64,000 nucleotides of DNA, taken from IMG/VR virus record IMGVR_UViG_3300033463_000102, one strand, 5' to 3'. This DNA is from an uncultured virus (IMG/VR IMGVR_UViG_3300033463_000102) (Duplodnaviria > Heunggongvirae > Uroviricota > Caudoviricetes). The notes beneath the pieces were generated by a model. That model did no database searches. It worked only from the letters and a program-made list of their open reading frames with translations, and had not been told where the DNA came from. Numbering within the stretch: the first letter of the stretch is position 1; each line of letters starts with the position of its first letter. Both the position numbers and the translations under genes were made by a program. This document shows positions 24,284-58,275 of the stretch, piece by piece.

Positions 24284-24312
24284 TTGACATTCGGTGTTTA
24301 ATATTCTAAACT
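24284..24312 (+). promoter_or_regulatory. Sigma70-type promoter TTGACA-17-TAAACT of the SSB/ncRNA operon
   Basis: Same architecture in B at 58247-58275. Confidence 0.75.
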
Positions 24313-24390: not shown

Positions 24391-25128
24391 ATGAGCAATG
24401 AAACAACAAATCTCGGTCTTACCCTCGACGCTGAAACCCTCGCTGCTTTCGAAAGCGGTGAAAGCGTTTCCAAGTTCCTTCTTGAAGAAGGTGTCTACGA
24501 CGCTGTCGTGCGTGGCTATGTCATTAAGCCACATGTGTTCGAAGGCGATGACCACGGCCCGAAAATCCAGCTTATCTGGCAGTTGGCAGACGGAGAAGGC
24601 ATGGTTCACACCCTTCTCGGTAAGCGTTGGAAGATGTCGGCAGACGAACGTTCCGTGTTCCGCAAGGAAGTGTCCAAATGGTTCAACAAGACCGATTGGC
24701 CGACAATCGTGGACATCTTGAAGAAAGGTGGTATCCTCGTGGCTGATGCCGAAGGCGCCCACTTCGAAATCGACAAGTTCATCGGAAAGAAGGCCAAGCT
24801 TATGGTCAACCAGGTCACGTCAAAGAAGGGGAAGACCTTCAATGACATCGTCAGCATCTCTCCTGCGTCAAAGACTCCAAAGGCTGTTGCCAATGACGAT
24901 GTGCCAGCATGGATGCTCGAAGGCGCACTCGACTATAAACTTGGCGAAGGCATCGGCATCCGTGCCAAGGAAGAGGGCGAAGCATCTGCCGAACAGCCGA
25001 AGGCAAACACTGCATCTAATGCTGCTCCCCCTGCATTGCCGAAGGGTTCCCCTGCCAAGAAGCAGTTGATGGAACAGGCCGCAGAAGCAAATGCCACTGG
25101 CTTTGCCGATGACGACTTGCCGTTCTGA
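24391..25128 (+). CDS. ssb: Single-stranded DNA-binding protein (probable)
   Basis: OB-fold-like N-terminus, flexible linker, acidic DDDLPF tail; homolog 57440-58165. Confidence 0.75.
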   Translation: MSNETTNLGLTLDAETLAAFESGESVSKFLLEEGVYDAVVRGYVIKPHVFEGDDHGPKIQLIWQLADGEGMVHTLLGKRWKMSADERSVFRKEVSKWFNKTDWPTIVDILKKGGILVADAEGAHFEIDKFIGKKAKLMVNQVTSKKGKTFNDIVSISPASKTPKAVANDDVPAWMLEGALDYKLGEGIGIRAKEEGEASAEQPKANTASNAAPPALPKGSPAKKQLMEQAAEANATGFADDDLPF

Positions 25129-25144
25129 TATACCTAATTAAATA

Positions 25145-25204
25145 CTCGACCGTGCCGACCGAGGATAAATAGACGGCACAGTTGTTATTCATGTTATCCT
25201 ACCT
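25145..25204 (+). ncRNA. H-type pseudoknot plus single-stranded anti-RBS tail
   Basis: P1 CTCG/CGAG, P2 GTGCCG/CGGCAC; covarying homolog at 57235-57295. Confidence 0.75.
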
Positions 25205-25299
25205 AGGGCCTAGTTTGGGCTTGGCTTCGGCGGGGGACTCTATTGGGACCGAAAGGCTTCATAAGGGTATTTTGCTGGGGCGAGTTCAGGCTGGGTCTT
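25205..25299 (+). ncRNA. Long G-U-rich hairpin capped by a GAAA tetraloop
   Basis: AGGGCCTAGTTTGGGCTTG pairs with CGAGTTCAGGCTGGGTCTT; stem extends inward. Confidence 0.7.
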
Positions 25300-25352
25300 G
25301 ATGGGGGCGGTGGTTTTTTCTAGGCTATCATTTACTCCGCCACCCCCTTCAA

Positions 25353-25503
25353 GGCTCAGTTAGCTCAGCTGGTAGAGCACGTTACGTTCCCCGTTCGCCT
25401 TTTTCTCCTAGCTCCCAAATTCTACATGGGATATGGTTGCGATAGAATGGGTTACTTTGGCTTGATAATCCCGATGTCGTGGGTTCGATTCCCACACTGG
25501 GCC
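25353..25503 (+). ncRNA. tRNA-like RNA with a 77-nt structured insertion in the anticodon arm (residual GAT loop)
   Basis: 8-bp acceptor GGCTCAGT/ACTGGGCC, D arm GCTC-AGCTGGTA-GAGC, T arm GTGGG-TTCGATT-CCCAC; homolog at 57301-57430. Confidence 0.85.
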
Positions 25504-26162: not shown

Positions 26163-27026
26163 ATGGCACAGAAAATTGTAAGTCCGAAAACGCCTGGAAA
26201 AAGGTATGTGAACTATCTTTTTTCCAGAACATTCCCAGTATGGAAACAGTATAAGATAGATGCACCTGTAATAAAACAGGTGCCACCAAACAGCGCTTGG
26301 ATTATTCATTGGTGGCGCAATACAGAAGAACTAAGCGAGATGGACAAGTATCACCTTGACGTTCTTGTTAGAGCAAAGTCTATGTTTAAGAAAGTCATCG
26401 TGTTTTATTCCAGCATGTATCCACCACCAAAGGAACTGGCTGGCTGCTATATAGTCAGAATTGCTAATGACGTTTCTCGGGGAGAGAACAATAGCTTCAT
26501 AGAAACATTGGCACAATGCCTTCTCGGAAATTGTGACTATGTGTTGAGAACCCATTTTAAGCTGAAAAAGAACTATGATGAAGGCAGAAAAAAGAATGTC
26601 CGTTTTTGGTGCAAGCTCATGTACGATGTATGCTTCGACGTAAGCGGCTTTGATACATCCACATACGGAGCAATAGACTGTCATGACCGTCGCTGGCTTG
26701 ACCCTTACCTGGCTGCGCTTCCTGGAAAATGGCATGACCTTGTTGATTCCACTTACCAGAATCACTATGCTGGCTCATTCATTTGGTATAACTGTAAGCG
26801 CTTCCGTGAATGGGCATCTGCCAACAATGTAACACTTGATGACATAAAGCAGCTCAATGGCGACGAAGTCCAGGGAAAACCTTGGCTATGCGAAGTCTTG
26901 ATTACGGCCATCTTCAAAGAAATAAATGCAAAGTATCACATCGACTTCTCACCATATGTAATCTTTGATTACTTTATACTAAATGGGCGAGATTTCAATT
27001 CCTTAGTCAATGGAGTCAAAAAATGA
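26163..27026 (+). CDS. Putative glycosyltransferase-like protein
   Basis: YVLRTHFK and HYAGSFIWYNC motifs; homolog at 63292-64000 lies in B's GT cluster; late motif variant GAGTATTTTTA at 26138. Confidence 0.5.
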   Translation: MAQKIVSPKTPGKRYVNYLFSRTFPVWKQYKIDAPVIKQVPPNSAWIIHWWRNTEELSEMDKYHLDVLVRAKSMFKKVIVFYSSMYPPPKELAGCYIVRIANDVSRGENNSFIETLAQCLLGNCDYVLRTHFKLKKNYDEGRKKNVRFWCKLMYDVCFDVSGFDTSTYGAIDCHDRRWLDPYLAALPGKWHDLVDSTYQNHYAGSFIWYNCKRFREWASANNVTLDDIKQLNGDEVQGKPWLCEVLITAIFKEINAKYHIDFSPYVIFDYFILNGRDFNSLVNGVKK

Positions 27027-27598
27027 ATATGATTTGTTCAACGCTTAGCGGAATGATGGCAATAAAACACCCAACAAAGGGCGTACTCGTTCGTGAAGAC
27101 GGTATGGTGTTTAACAGAGTAGGAAGAAGTAATAGGTATGCATGGACCAAAGGGTGCAAAGATAAGGACGGATACCCAATAGTCAGAATAAATTATAAAC
27201 GTACGCTAGTTCACCGTCTCGTAGCAGAGACGTTTATTCCTAATACCAACAGCAAACCCACTGTAGACCACATAAATCGGATAAGGGATGATAACAGAGT
27301 TCAGAACCTACGCTGGGCAACATACAAAGAACAGGCCGACAACACTATAAGAGTTATTAATAAAGAAGATTATGGTGTCCGTTCGTGTGAAAATAAGAGT
27401 GAATATTCTAGGAATTATCATCAAGCTAACAGAATAGAACACATTGCTAGAATGAGTGAATACAATAAAGAAAACAAAGACAAGATACTTGCGTATCACA
27501 GAAAATATTATGCAGAACACAAAGATAAGATAATTGCTTATCAAAGAAAATATCGTTCTGAACATAAAGAGAAGGAAAAAGAAAATGATGTTAATTAG
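27023..27598 (+). CDS. HNH homing endonuclease
   Basis: VHRLVAETFIPN..VDHINRIRDDNRVQNLRW. Confidence 0.9.
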   Translation: MNMICSTLSGMMAIKHPTKGVLVREDGMVFNRVGRSNRYAWTKGCKDKDGYPIVRINYKRTLVHRLVAETFIPNTNSKPTVDHINRIRDDNRVQNLRWATYKEQADNTIRVINKEDYGVRSCENKSEYSRNYHQANRIEHIARMSEYNKENKDKILAYHRKYYAEHKDKIIAYQRKYRSEHKEKEKENDVN

Positions 27599-57024: not shown

Positions 57025-57056
57025 GGAAAGAAAGCCCACGGGTTCCCCCGTGGGCC
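57025..57056 (-). terminator. Intrinsic terminator closing B's ncRNA cluster
   Basis: GCCCACGGG-GGAA-CCCGTGGGC-TTTCTTT. Confidence 0.75.
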
Positions 57057-57087
57057 CTTGATGAGTTAGCTTGACTTTTTAGAGTAA

Positions 57088-57230
57088 CAACCCGCATGGG
57101 CCTAGTTTATCCTTTTTTTCCTTCCATGCAAGTTGTTGACCCTAGTGGACAGATGGGTGAAACTGATAGCACACATTTGTTGAAGAAAACCCCATCTGCC
57201 CGCTAGGGCCCAGCCCGAAGGCTGAACCCA
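57088..57230 (-). ncRNA. Three tandem hairpins (UUCG hairpin, GCTATCA-loop hairpin, purine/GGA-loop hairpin)
   Basis: GGGTTCAGCC-TTCG-GGCTGGGCCC; GGGCAGATGGG/CCCATCTGTCC; CAACTTGCATGG/CCATGCGGGTTG. Confidence 0.65.
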
Positions 57231-57234
57231 CAAC

Positions 57235-57295
57235 AGGTAGGTTAACATGAACAATAAGTAGCCTGTCTATTTTAAGCCAGTCAGGCAAGTTGGCT
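57235..57295 (-). ncRNA. H-type pseudoknot plus anti-RBS tail
   Basis: P1 AGCCA/TGGCT, P2 GCCTG/CAGGC, loop AAATAGA shared with A. Confidence 0.75.
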
Positions 57296-57300
57296 GTTAG

Positions 57301-57430
57301 GTGTGATGGCAGGGTTCGAACCTACAACATCGGGATTACAAATCCTAAGTAACCCGCCCTGTCGCAACCATTTCAGGAGAAAAGGCGGACGGGTAACATT
57401 CCGTGCTCTACCAGTTGAGCTACATCACAC
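57301..57430 (-). ncRNA. tRNA-like RNA with a 56-nt structured insertion in the anticodon arm (residual TGT loop)
   Basis: 8-bp acceptor GTGTGATG/CATCACAC, D arm GCTC-AACTGGTA-GAGC, T arm GTAGG-TTCGAAC-CCTGC. Confidence 0.85.
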
Positions 57431-58246: not shown

Positions 58247-58275
58247 AGTTTAGCATTTTTATCTTCGACTGTCAA
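58247..58275 (-). promoter_or_regulatory. Sigma70-type promoter TTGACA-17-TAAACT
   Basis: Conserved with 24284-24312. Confidence 0.75.

What the first reader, a model, noticed from the sequence alone, without database searches (positions are those of the whole stretch)
25129..25503. Modular ncRNA cluster downstream of SSB, conserved in both phages with shuffled order
Seen: A order is SSB, pseudoknot plus tail, tetraloop hairpin, GCTATCA-loop hairpin, tRNA-like RNA. B order (57025-57430,-) is SSB, tRNA-like RNA, pseudoknot plus tail, UUCG hairpin, GCTATCA-loop hairpin, GGA-loop hairpin, terminator. Stems are replaced in sequence while loop and tail sequences persist. Both follow a conserved TTGACA-17-TAAACT promoter upstream of SSB. 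Inference: an early polycistronic small-RNA battery, possibly cut apart at the tRNA-like element, in which several modules display pyrimidine-rich anti-RBS sequences for host takeover or anti-defence.
Basis: partly seen in the sequence, partly recalled or inferred. Interest (0 to 1): 0.88.

Follow-up and report, generated by a model that had tools for sequence, protein, structure and literature searches.

The report
Phage tRNA carrying a Y-RNA-like arm
Behind an early replication gene, two related phages encode a conserved set of folded small RNAs whose centrepiece is a complete tRNA with an extra arm like the part of bacterial Y RNAs thought to hold the Ro60 protein, a layout not described before.

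Summary
Both phages in the window, and 8 further distinct relatives, carry a gene-free cluster of folded RNAs after the same ORF, with the module order shuffled (tRNA last in 3, first in 7) and strong compensatory changes. The "tRNA-like RNA" (25354-25503 +; 57429-57301 -) is a complete tRNA (Ile-GAU in A, Thr-UGU in B) interrupted between positions 28 and 29 of the anticodon stem by a conserved 53-89-nt arm. The same arm sits at the same site in tRNA-Asn, -Cys, -Thr(GGU) and a Pro-like tRNA of unrelated phages, and in circularly permuted, YrlA-style RNAs directly upstream of Ro60 (TROVE) genes. TROVE was found in 6 of 8 records holding the arm, against 3 of 121 Bacteroidales genomes. A model built only from TROVE-linked copies finds both window copies. 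My best reading (0.55) is a Y-RNA-like tRNA chimera whose arm binds Ro60; the window phages have no Ro60 gene, so it would be the host's. Binding is inferred, not shown. Metatranscriptome contigs hold the unspliced form, and no spliced form was seen. An intron remains a rival. The anti-RBS idea finds no support. The pseudoknot and hairpins are real, but their function is open.

The parts
24284..24312 (+). Promoter-like site TTGACA-17-TAAACT upstream of the ORF in phage A
   Evidence: 10 of 12 consensus matches; a consensus match only
24391..25128 (+).
   Evidence: No Pfam, PHROG or PDB family; weak NCBIfam rep_init_NGO0469, 31.6 bits against a cut-off of 75
25145..25179 (+). H-type pseudoknot in A (S1 CUCG/CGAG; S2 GUGCC/GGCAC; A-rich loop 3)
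   Evidence: R2, 45.3 bits. Covariation of S1 and S2 was measured on the B-type alignment
25180..25204 (+). Conserved single-stranded tail (UUCAUGUUA..CUACCU)
25208..25296 (+). Long G.U-rich hairpin specific to A-type phages
   Evidence: invariant in 3 sequences, so there is no covariation test
25297..25353 (+). Hairpin H2 of A with a large U-rich loop
   Evidence: the stem differs between A, L014 and L021 yet stays mostly paired
25354..25503 (+). Complete tRNA-Ile(GAU), positions 1-73, carrying the arm
25382..25458 (+). 77-nt Y-RNA-like arm inserted between tRNA positions 28 and 29 (P1, conserved internal loop, P2, extra inner hairpin)
   Evidence: R1, 75 bits; R3, 29.4 bits, E 8.4e-5
58247..58275 (-). 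Promoter-like site TTGACA-17-TAAACT upstream of the ORF in phage B
57440..58165 (-). Upstream ORF of phage B, 241 aa, ends ...DSDLPF
57301..57429 (-). Complete tRNA-Thr(UGU), positions 1-73, carrying the arm
   Evidence: (Rfam tRNA, 42.7 bits with a 67-nt insertion)
57346..57401 (-). 56-nt Y-RNA-like arm between tRNA positions 28 and 29
   Evidence: 73.3 bits; R3, 43.4 bits, E 1.8e-8
57261..57295 (-). H-type pseudoknot in B
   Evidence: S1: 3 of 5 pairs change on both sides; S2: 5 of 5
57235..57260 (-). Conserved tail in B
57203..57234 (-). Hairpin H1 (UUCG loop, two invariant U.G pairs)
57140..57202 (-). Hairpin H2 (11-bp stem, about 32-nt U-rich loop) plus the CCACUAGGG trailer
   Evidence: 7 of 11 pairs change on both sides
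57082..57139 (-). Hairpin H3 with GGA-rich loop holding GGAUAAACUAGG (present in B, L006, L016, L020 only)
   Evidence: read by eye; not tested with a tool
57027..57057 (-). Terminator-like GC hairpin plus U-rich run before the next ORF
   Evidence: by eye; not reported by the scan

Best explanation
The cluster is a co-transcribed set of structured small RNAs made from the early promoter together with the upstream ORF. Its key member is not a mere tRNA look-alike. It is a whole tRNA with a 7-bp acceptor stem, D arm, T arm and a canonical 7-nt anticodon loop (GAU in A, UGU in B). Its anticodon stem is opened on the 5' side, between positions 28 and 29, by a side arm. The arm consists of a 7-8-bp helix (P1), a conserved asymmetric internal loop (GCC-UUUUUCU on one strand, UUGCGAUAG on the other), and a short helix (P2) with a variable cap.

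The arm is the same module that forms the terminal stem of circularly permuted, YrlA-like Y RNAs encoded just upstream of Ro60 (TROVE) genes in other phages. It also occurs, non-permuted, in tRNAs of giant phages whose tRNA arrays hold a Ro60 gene. I therefore read the window RNAs as Y-RNA-like tRNA chimeras. The tRNA ends would be trimmed by the tRNA-processing enzymes, the arm would be kept, and the arm would bind a Ro60 protein. Because these 32-kb phages have no Ro60 gene, that protein would be the host's. The RNA would then tether or gate Ro60, and possibly its nuclease partner PNPase, during infection.

Shown: the anatomy, the covariation, the homology of the arm to Ro60-linked copies, and the presence of the unspliced form in RNA libraries. 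Inferred: Ro60 binding, retention of the arm in the working RNA, and the downstream effect. The pseudoknot with tail and hairpins H1-H3 are companion RNAs of this phage group, with no assigned function.
For: (1) tRNA. Removing the arm in silico gives an ARAGORN tRNA in 10 of 10 versions (9 Ile-GAT, 1 Thr-TGT). The split anticodon stem covaries: pair 27-43 is C-G in 6 and G-C in 4, and pair 30-40 is G-C in 9 and U-A in 1.

(2) Arm family. The same arm at the same site occurs in tRNA-Asn(GTT), tRNA-Cys(GCA) and a Pro-like tRNA of a 175-kb phage contig, in tRNA-Cys of a 419-kb phage, and in tRNA-Thr(GGT) of a 33-kb phage. A 19-nt degenerate pattern of the arm gave 12 loci in IMG/VR, and all 12 are family members.

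(3) Permuted relatives. L088, L096 and L092 have the arm's two strands at the RNA ends, enclosing an anticodon hairpin, T arm, closed acceptor hairpin and D arm. They give the best Rfam hits to YrlA, at 26.4, 26.6 and 21.2 bits. The L088 units end immediately upstream of a Ro60 gene on the same strand (PDB 9L5Y, E 3e-31).

(4) Ro60 linkage. TROVE is present in 6 of 8 records searched that hold the arm, against 2 of 14 control genomes and 3 of 121 Bacteroidales genomes.

(5) Homology test. Model R3, built only from 8 copies in TROVE-bearing records, finds window B (43.4 bits, E 1.8e-8), window A (29.4 bits, E 8.4e-5) and the arm in each of the 9 other small-phage loci searched, with no other hit in 98,362 bases.

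(6) Motif. The conserved strand (UGCGAUAG, GGCGAUAG or UGCGAAAG) resembles the GNCGAAN0-1G word of the presumed Rsr site of YrlA. It lies on the strand that leads into the T arm, as in YrlA (PMC4201824, section 5 and passages; 'CGAA motif' in PMC12135203, passages).

(7) RNA libraries. Contigs of two runs of one study cover the cluster of a ~95% relative and run on into the arm. One 151-nt contig fits a whole arm-bearing tRNA with adapter abutting position 73. No joint across the arm was seen.
Against: No Ro60/TROVE gene was found in the window (66 ORFs scanned), nor in the two complete small relatives G008 and G009. The host is unknown, so a partner protein is not in evidence for these phages.

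The Rfam YrlA model scores only 16.9 bits on A and 18 bits on the B-type record, against a gathering score of 69. That model also gives weak hits in 13 of 14 control genomes, so those scores carry little weight.

Only 2 of 10 small-phage versions have an exact CGAA; the others have CGAU, CGAC or CGCA.

The 6 TROVE-positive records are not 6 independent lineages. G002 and G004 hold the same array, and G005 and G010 are similar, so there are about 4 lineages.

The RNA evidence is from contigs only. DNA carry-over is possible, and a 73-76-nt spliced tRNA would probably not be assembled or found.

The well-kept anticodon loops and the covarying split stem are also what an intron-containing working tRNA would show.
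Confidence: 0.55

Rival explanations
1. The arm is a new kind of small tRNA intron or intervening sequence. It would be cut out, by host nucleases or by itself, and the exons rejoined or left nicked, giving a working tRNA-Ile or tRNA-Thr for phage translation.
For: Precise in-silico removal restores a canonical tRNA in 10 of 10 versions. The split anticodon stem covaries. The same element sits at one fixed site in at least 5 tRNA types, as mobile introns do. An HNH endonuclease gene lies 1.5 kb downstream in A. The linkers on both sides of P1 are A/U-rich and single-stranded.
Against: No joint across the arm appears in RNA-library contigs, while the unspliced form is present (contigs only). 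The same module forms the RNA termini in permuted relatives beside Ro60 genes, where it cannot be an intron. At 53-89 nt it is far too short for group I or II introns, and no intron or ribozyme family matched in Rfam. By eye I found no bulge-helix-bulge motif at the junctions. No RNA ligase was found in the window. RtcB is in only 2 of 5 linked phages and lies far from the arrays. The giant phage already has arm-less tRNA-Asn, -Cys, -Ile, -Thr and -Pro.
Confidence: 0.2
2. The tRNA is a processing and stability scaffold that displays the arm to some factor other than Ro60. That factor could be another RNA-binding protein, a nuclease such as PNPase directly, or a tRNA-targeting defence enzyme for which the intact anticodon loop is bait.
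For: The small phages carry the RNA without Ro60. Anticodons differ between close relatives: Ile versus Thr at the same locus, and Arg versus Phe in L088 versus L096 (my reading). That pattern suits bait for anticodon-specific enzymes. The phage Ro60 paper reports that its Yrl RNAs bind PNPase on their own (PMC12135203, passages). Earlier notes of this scan list other phages with Y-like RNAs and no Ro60.
Against: Nothing here points to a specific alternative partner. The linkage with TROVE (6 of 8 records) is the only partner signal found.
Confidence: 0.15
3. One reading: a battery of small RNAs whose pyrimidine-rich loops and tails pair with ribosome-binding sites of host or phage mRNAs.
For: The U/C-rich words are conserved: UUUUCUCC in the arm, CUACCU in the tail, UUUUCUU in the H2 loop. 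Genes of these phages carry GGAG-type sites before their start codons (by eye).
Against: No complementary site was found in the window other than the tails themselves, and GGAGAAAA is not enriched. The arm's U/C-rich word is also kept in phages linked by one record title to a Bacteroidaceae MAG, and Bacteroidota, from my recall, make little use of Shine-Dalgarno pairing. That word is one strand of a protein-site-like internal loop rather than a free loop. Host targets could not be searched because the host is unknown.
Confidence: 0.07

Closest known systems
YrlA, the bacterial Y RNA-like RNA (Rfam RF02553; Chen et al. 2014, PMC4201824; Wang et al. 2018, bioRxiv 10.1101/312249)
   Same: Both have a tRNA-like core with T arm, D arm and acceptor helix, joined through the anticodon-stem position to a helix with a conserved internal loop. 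That loop carries a GNCGAA-like word on the strand leading into the T arm. Both are found in phages, and relatives of the window RNA lie within about 0.1-4 kb of a Ro60 gene on the same strand.
   Different: [quoted passage not shown] The window RNAs have normal tRNA ends, a complete anticodon stem-loop with a real anticodon, and the Y-like stem as a closed side arm forming a three-way junction. They score far below the Rfam threshold, and no Ro60 gene lies nearby.
[quoted passage not shown]
   Same: The end product has a free tRNA-like acceptor end as well as a Ro60-binding stem, which is the same overall topology as the window RNA.
   Different: It is a two-piece RNA made by cutting a permuted precursor. 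The window RNA is a single chain with the Y-like stem closed, and it has an anticodon arm.
Thermus phage phiLo Ro60 with Yrl1 and Yrl2 (PMC12135203, abstract and passages)
   Same: This is a phage-encoded Y-like RNA system. The RNAs lie upstream of the phage Ro60 gene, have a CGAA motif in an internal bulge, and are proposed to hijack host PNPase. The Ro60 next to L088 matches its structure (9L5Y, E 3e-31).
   Different: Those Yrl RNAs are stem-bulge-stem RNAs formed by the 5' and 3' ends. No complete tRNA is described, and that phage carries its own Ro60.
tRNA introns (bacterial group I introns in anticodon loops, PMC3984707 abstract; archaeal bulge-helix-bulge introns at non-canonical sites, recalled)
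   Same: Both are an intervening sequence in a tRNA gene whose removal would restore a canonical tRNA, and the site is fixed across several tRNA types.
   Different: The arm is 53-89 nt and sits in the 5' strand of the anticodon stem. It has no group I features or Rfam hit, and no bulge-helix-bulge motif by eye. The hosts look bacterial by their promoters and ribosome-binding sites. The unspliced form is present in RNA libraries, and the module also occurs as RNA termini.

Membership tests
tRNA (RF00005) | Score at or above Rfam's gathering threshold (29 bits) | tested here: met
   B scores 42.7 bits with a 67-nt insertion in the anticodon arm. A is not reported by Rfam, and ARAGORN finds nothing in the native window.
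tRNA (RF00005) | Cloverleaf helices kept by compensatory change; 7-nt anticodon loop with U33 and a purine at 37 | tested here: met
   acceptor 6 of 7, T stem 3 of 5 and anticodon stem 3 of 5 pairs change on both sides, and 95.9% of cells are paired. Loops are UUGAUAA, UUUGUAA or CUGAUAA. ARAGORN calls a tRNA in 10 of 10 after in-silico removal of the arm.
tRNA (RF00005) | Aminoacylation and use in translation | not testable with these tools
   The discriminator is C73 in all 10 small-phage versions, and CCA is not encoded.
YrlA / bacterial Y RNA (RF02553) | Score at or above Rfam's gathering threshold (69 bits) | tested here: not met
   Window A scores 16.9 bits. The B-type record G008 scores 18 bits, and that match includes the ORF's 3' end. 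Permuted relatives score 21-35 bits. The model gives weak hits in 13 of 14 control genomes.
YrlA / bacterial Y RNA (RF02553) | tRNA-like T arm, D arm and acceptor helix | tested here: met
YrlA / bacterial Y RNA (RF02553) | Ro60-binding stem formed by the RNA's 5' and 3' ends; closed acceptor; no anticodon loop | tested here: not met
   The window RNAs have the ends at the acceptor stem, the Y-like stem closed by P2, and a full anticodon hairpin. Relatives L088, L096, L092 and L107 do have the ends in the stem, but they also keep an anticodon hairpin.
YrlA / bacterial Y RNA (RF02553) | GNCGAAN0-1G (CGAA) word on the strand 5' of the T arm, in a bulged helix | tested here: inconclusive
   The word is on the right strand and in a bulged setting. 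Exact CGAA occurs in only 2 of 10 small-phage versions (L006, L020). A has UGCGAUAG and B has UGCGACAG.
YrlA / bacterial Y RNA (RF02553) | Encoded within about 4 kb of a Ro60 (TROVE) gene on the same strand | tested here: not met
   No TROVE in 66 window ORFs or in G008 and G009. The feature is met for homologous arms in 6 of 8 records searched.
YrlA / bacterial Y RNA (RF02553) | Binds Ro60/Rsr | not testable with these tools
   No RNA-protein test is available here.
Group I tRNA intron | Group I core (P3-P9), insertion in the anticodon loop, Rfam Intron_gpI match | tested here: not met
   The insert is 53-89 nt between positions 28 and 29. No intron family matched at E up to 5.
Archaeal-type tRNA intron | Bulge-helix-bulge motif at both junctions | not tested
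   Inspected by eye only; no 3-4-3 motif was seen, and no tool was run.
tmRNA | tRNA-like domain plus tag reading frame and pseudoknots | tested here: not met
   ARAGORN finds no tmRNA. Only an 18-nt T-arm match to Rfam tmRNA was found.

The most novel reading that the evidence does not exclude
These RNAs are a new class of Y RNA, 'Y-tRNAs'. They would be complete, end-processed and possibly chargeable tRNAs with real anticodons that carry a Ro60-binding arm. Phages, including small ones with no Ro60 of their own, would use them to couple the host Ro60/PNPase RNA-surveillance machine to tRNA-handling machinery (ribosome, synthetases, or anticodon nucleases of host defence). They would also be the non-permuted form from which the permuted YrlA-type Y RNAs arose.
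Probability: 0.3. Interest if true: 0.85.

Novelty: new variant of a known kind. Interest (0 to 1): 0.68.

Why it matters
In every bacterial Y RNA described in the papers I could read, the RNA ends form the Ro60-binding stem, and the YrlA type that was solved lacks an anticodon loop and a free acceptor end. What their tRNA-like half is for is an open question. Here the same kind of stem sits as a side arm on otherwise ordinary tRNAs with real anticodons. This occurs in several unrelated phages, and in small phages that bring no Ro60 of their own.

If the arm binds Ro60, three things follow. It would link Ro60 directly to authentic tRNA function. It would give a natural series (whole tRNA with arm, permuted tRNA with anticodon hairpin, YrlA without one) bearing on the origin of Y RNAs from tRNA. 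And it would offer a simple system to test what a phage gains by engaging the host's Ro60.

If instead the arm is spliced out, it would be a new kind of bacterial tRNA intron. Either outcome is testable with one northern blot and one binding assay.

Tried and rejected
- Known RNA families. At gathering thresholds Rfam found only the tRNA of B in the window. Permissive scans of both regions gave only chance-level miRNA-type hits for the hairpins, and nothing for the pseudoknot.
- Small peptide. An ORF can be read from the AUG in the tail in A, B, L007 and L008. The frame is not kept in L006 (stop after 13 codons, read by eye), so I rejected a peptide.
- Opposite-strand gene. The complement of the tail looks like an RBS plus AUG, but the frame is 58 codons in A and 4 in B (by eye). 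Rejected.
- Internal targets for the tail or arm words: none found.
- Cultured phages. blastn of 1.4 kb of region A against 50,697 phage records gave no match.
- Host. Relatives of the upstream ORF were not found in 185,579 species genomes. The window's own assembly is not held. The host stays unknown.
- Arm in bacterial chromosomes. Model R1 hit 1 of 151 Bacteroidaceae-family genomes, and that was the MAG whose contig end holds the giant-phage tRNA array. The pattern scan of species genomes gave 1 real locus out of 8.
- Companion modules elsewhere. Model R2 (pseudoknot-H1-H2) hit only this phage group and nothing beside TROVE genes.
- RtcB as a splicing ligase. It is present in 2 of 5 TROVE-bearing phage records, far from the arrays, and is not in the window.
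- RNA data. X21 and X22 covered only part of the ORF. No run with raw reads was available, so RNA ends, strand and a spliced form could not be tested.
- K-turn, T-loop, tetraloop-receptor and self-cleaving ribozyme cores were compared by eye with the internal loop. None fitted across the variants (recalled motifs, no tool).
- Two reviews on bacterial Y RNAs (PMC10870794, PMC6047535) are not held. They and the supplements of Chen et al. 2014 might describe phage RNAs of this layout.
Full report
**What the window is.** The 64-kb window holds two related phage genomes of about 32 kb each. Each has terminase, P22-type portal, major head, head-closure and collagen-like tail-fibre genes, plus a primase/helicase module. 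The finding lies after a 245-aa ORF in phage A (24391-25128, +) and after its 79%-identical counterpart in phage B (58165-57440, -). It has no Pfam, PHROG or PDB family. It has one sub-threshold NCBIfam hit to a phage replication-initiation family (31.6 bits, cut-off 75). Its acidic ...DDDLPF end is like an SSB tip, so the label is unproven. A TTGACA-17-TAAACT promoter-like site precedes the ORF in both phages (24284-24312 +; 58275-58247 -). No terminator-like site on the sense strand separates the ORF from the RNAs.

**The observation.** I collected relatives through the ORF. There were 6 loci in IMG/VR and 10 in metagenome contigs. One of the latter, L023, is a 34-residue partial match without the cluster. 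After removing identical copies (L003-5 and L015 equal B; L018 and L019 equal L007; L022 equals L008), 10 distinct versions remain: A, B, L006, L007, L008, L014, L016, L017, L020 and L021. All 10 hold a pseudoknot followed by a conserved tail, and a tRNA-like element. The tRNA-like element comes last in 3 (A, L014, L021) and directly after the ORF in 7. So the modular, shuffled layout is real.

On 7 B-type sequences, the pseudoknot (two 5-bp stems and an A-rich third loop), hairpin H1 and hairpin H2 are 97.9% paired, against 33-55% when partners are slid. Of 34 pairs, 18 change on both sides, and 0 of 500 shuffles reach the observed covariation. Several G.U pairs are invariant, so the folds exist only on the ORF's strand. 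The part of A between tail and tRNA folds into a long G.U-rich hairpin plus H2, but it is invariant in the three A-type sequences and so untested. The GCTATCA loop word is shared by A and B only. Model R2 of pseudoknot-H1-H2 finds A, L014 and L021 at 43-45 bits and nothing outside this phage group. Rfam has no family for any of these modules.

**The tRNA-like element is a whole tRNA with an insert.** Rfam's tRNA model matches B at 42.7 bits with 67 nt in place of the anticodon arm. ARAGORN sees nothing in the native window. Reading the sequences shows a 7-bp acceptor stem, D arm, T arm, a 5-nt variable region and a canonical 7-nt anticodon loop. Of the 5' strand of the anticodon stem, only two nucleotides follow the D arm. 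The other three lie 53-89 nt downstream, right before the loop.

Removing the intervening stretch between positions 28 and 29 in a script gives an ARAGORN tRNA in 10 of 10 versions: 9 Ile-GAT, and B Thr-TGT. ARAGORN's own intron option on the native sequences gave inconsistent answers. It made 9 of 10 calls, but only 2 had the GAT anticodon. On the alignment of the 10, the tRNA helices and the insert's main helix P1 are 95.9% paired, against 29-47% slid, and 15 of 29 pairs change on both sides. The split stem itself covaries: pair 27-43 is C-G in 6 and G-C in 4, and pair 30-40 is G-C in 9 and U-A in 1.

The insert is a hairpin-like arm. It has P1 (7-8 bp), a conserved asymmetric internal loop (GCC-UUUUUCU on the 5' side, UUGCGAUAG on the 3' side, with a possible 2-bp GC/GC step and a 4-nt purine bulge), a 2-4-bp P2, and a variable cap. 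A, L014, L016 and L021 add an inner hairpin. The arm is flanked by A/U-rich linkers, and the 3' linker is always UACUU.

**The same arm elsewhere.** A pattern made of arm words alone gave 50 IMG/VR loci. By inspection, 42 are chance: 38 from one coding region of a common phage, plus L034/L045, L057 and L075. Five are the known phage group. Three are new: L065 and L071, with two arm-bearing tRNAs each, and L055. A second, 19-nt degenerate pattern of the arm's 3' half gave 12 loci, all of them family members.

- In a 175-kb phage contig with an array of 35 ordinary tRNAs, three further tRNAs carry the arm: Asn-GTT, Cys-GCA and a Pro-like one with loop AAUGGGA.
- The same array ends a contig of a MAG whose record title names a Bacteroidaceae bacterium.
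- A 419-kb phage has at least four copies.
- A complete 33-kb phage has a tRNA-Thr(GGT) with the arm and a perfect split stem.

So one arm family sits at one site in at least five kinds of tRNA. It is rare. It was in 1 of 151 Bacteroidaceae-family genomes with model R1, and that one is the MAG just mentioned. An exact pattern scan of the 185,579 species genomes gave 8 loci, of which 1 is real.

**Link to Y RNAs and Ro60.** Three of the 12 pattern loci (L088, L096, L092) have the arm's two strands far apart, at the two ends of an RNA. That RNA runs, in order: arm 3' strand, UUACUU, an anticodon hairpin, T arm, an acceptor helix closed by a loop, D arm, arm 5' strand. That is the circularly permuted tRNA layout of YrlA, the bacterial Y RNA that partners the Ro60 protein Rsr. 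Rfam's YrlA model gives its best, though sub-threshold, scores there: 26.4, 26.6 and 21.2 bits full-length, against a gathering score of 69.

I then searched for TROVE, the Ro60 domain, in every held record that carries the arm. It is present in 6 of 8:
- the 175-kb phage, where the gene lies inside the tRNA array about 0.45 kb downstream of the Pro-like arm-tRNA on the same strand;
- the MAG contig with the same array;
- the 419-kb phage;
- the three phages with permuted RNAs, where the RNAs end immediately upstream of the gene on the same strand.

It is absent from the two complete small phages, G008 (B-type) and G009 (the L089 phage). Two records, those of L016 and L021, are not held. The protein next to L088 is a real Ro60: TROVE plus VWA domains, E 3e-31 to the Thermus phage Ro60 structures 9L5Y/9KOP and 5e-7 to D. 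radiodurans Rsr. The background is low: TROVE is in 2 of 14 control genomes and in 3 of 121 Bacteroidales genomes. The six positives represent about four independent lineages, because two pairs are near-copies.

One of the three Bacteroidales TROVE loci (L107) again has, about 650 nt upstream on the same strand, a permuted tRNA-like RNA. It has an anticodon hairpin, an A-rich linker after the D arm and a CCGCC-plus-U-rich 3' strand. This is the same three-way layout.

**Is the window's arm the same thing?** Model R3 was built from only the 8 copies that lie in TROVE-bearing records. It finds window B at 43.4 bits (E 1.8e-8), window A at 29.4 bits (E 8.4e-5), and the arm in each of the 9 other small-phage loci searched. 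There is no other hit in 98,362 bases.

The literature I could read gives these features for YrlA:
- a GNCGAAN0-1G word in the presumed Rsr site;
- conservation of the 5' strand only;
- location within 4 kb of Ro60 on the same strand in 254 bacteria and 22 phages;
- cleavage by RNase P with CCA addition in M. smegmatis;
- a second Y RNA processed from the same precursor (PMC4201824: section 5 and passages).

[quoted passage not shown] A phage Ro60 binds two upstream Yrl RNAs with a CGAA motif and forms a complex with host PNPase (PMC12135203, abstract and passages).

The window's conserved strand (UGCGAUAG in A, UGCGACAG in B, UGCGAAAG in L006 and L020) is close to that word and lies on the equivalent strand, but it is exact in only 2 of 10. 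The YrlA model itself scores only 16.9 bits on A. In that alignment it pairs the arm's 5' strand with an upstream GGGGCGAG word rather than with the arm's own 3' strand. The model also gives weak hits in 13 of 14 control genomes, largely because adjacent tRNAs mimic it. I therefore give those scores little weight.

**RNA evidence.** Of 24 runs that hold part of region B, 5 are RNA libraries, all kept as contigs. I laid four of them. Two runs of one study (X19, X20) have contigs of a ~95% relative that cover 57031-57351, which spans the terminator side, H3, H2, H1, tail, pseudoknot and the tRNA's 3' part. They run on for 63-77 letters that contain the arm's two conserved words. One 151-letter contig consists of sequencing adapter, then 51 letters from tRNA position 73 inward, then 77 more letters. 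That is the length of a whole arm-bearing tRNA. No joint across the arm was reported. This shows that the unspliced form is in RNA libraries, and it hints at a 3' end at position 73. It cannot exclude DNA carry-over or a short spliced tRNA that was not assembled. X21 and X22 covered only the ORF.

**Reading.** By homology and gene linkage in relatives, the arm is a Ro60-binding module. The window's phages have no Ro60, RtcB or RNA ligase gene (66 ORFs), so they would have to use a host Ro60.

The permuted relatives are the main argument against a simple intron, since there the module forms the RNA's termini. The intron reading still fits the perfectly kept tRNA features and cannot be excluded without end-mapped RNA data. 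The anti-RBS idea is not supported. The pseudoknot-tail-H1-H2(-H3) RNAs are real, but I cannot assign them. A role like that of YrlB, the second Y RNA made from one precursor, is only an analogy.

Earlier notes of this scan list permuted YrlA-like RNAs in phages without Ro60. That fits the idea that phages can deploy such RNAs against host proteins, but I did not check those notes.

**Novelty.** I found no description of a non-permuted, anticodon-bearing tRNA with a Y-like arm. The full-text searches were made, plus the passages read in three Y-RNA papers. Two reviews and the supplements of Chen et al. 2014 could not be seen. I rate it a new variant of a known kind.

Noticed in passing
window 1-64000: The window is two related ~32-kb phage genomes laid end to end. 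Structural genes run on the - strand in both, while the replication module is on + in A and on - in B. Neither holds an ordinary tRNA. I did not examine whether this is a tandem prophage pair or an assembly join.
   Followed up: no
window 57082-57139 (-); L006, L016, L020: Hairpin H3 is present in only 4 of 7 B-type versions. Its stem differs between versions but stays complementary, and its loop keeps two or three GGA words and GGAUAAACUAGG. The TAAACUA part equals the -10 region of the early promoter, so it may be an internal promoter, a GGA-loop (CsrA-site-like) hairpin, or both.
   Followed up: partly
window 25277-25297 (+): In A-type phages, a GGGGCGAG word upstream of H2 could pair with the UCGCC of the arm's 5' strand. 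The Rfam YrlA model used this alternative pairing. It may be an alternative fold or a remnant of rearrangement.
   Followed up: no
L085 (G002:18500-30000) and L086: A giant-phage tRNA array has 35 ordinary tRNAs, 3 arm-bearing tRNAs and a Ro60 gene inside the array. It also includes unusually long tRNA calls (Asp 84 nt, Cys 86 nt). RtcB lies 40 kb away, next to a lone tRNA hit.
   Followed up: partly
L088 and L096 (reverse strand), upstream of the Ro60 gene: At least three tandem Y-like units precede the Ro60 gene. Homologous units carry different anticodon-loop triplets in the two phages (CCG versus GAA). In L088 one acceptor hairpin loop encodes CCA at the place where RNase P cleavage would leave a CCA end.
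   Followed up: partly
window 27023-27598 (+): A free-standing HNH endonuclease gene lies 1.5 kb downstream of the cluster in A only (Pfam HNH_3, 4.3e-10).
   Followed up: no
window 25016-25192 (-): A 58-codon ORF on the opposite strand starts at the complement of the tail (AGGUAGG..AUG) in A. The same frame is 4 codons long in B, so it is probably not a gene.
   Followed up: partly
L089 (33-kb phage with direct terminal repeats): The arm-bearing tRNA-Thr(GGT) of this otherwise different phage is preceded by TAAACTATATGT, the same -10-like word as the window's early promoters.
   Followed up: no
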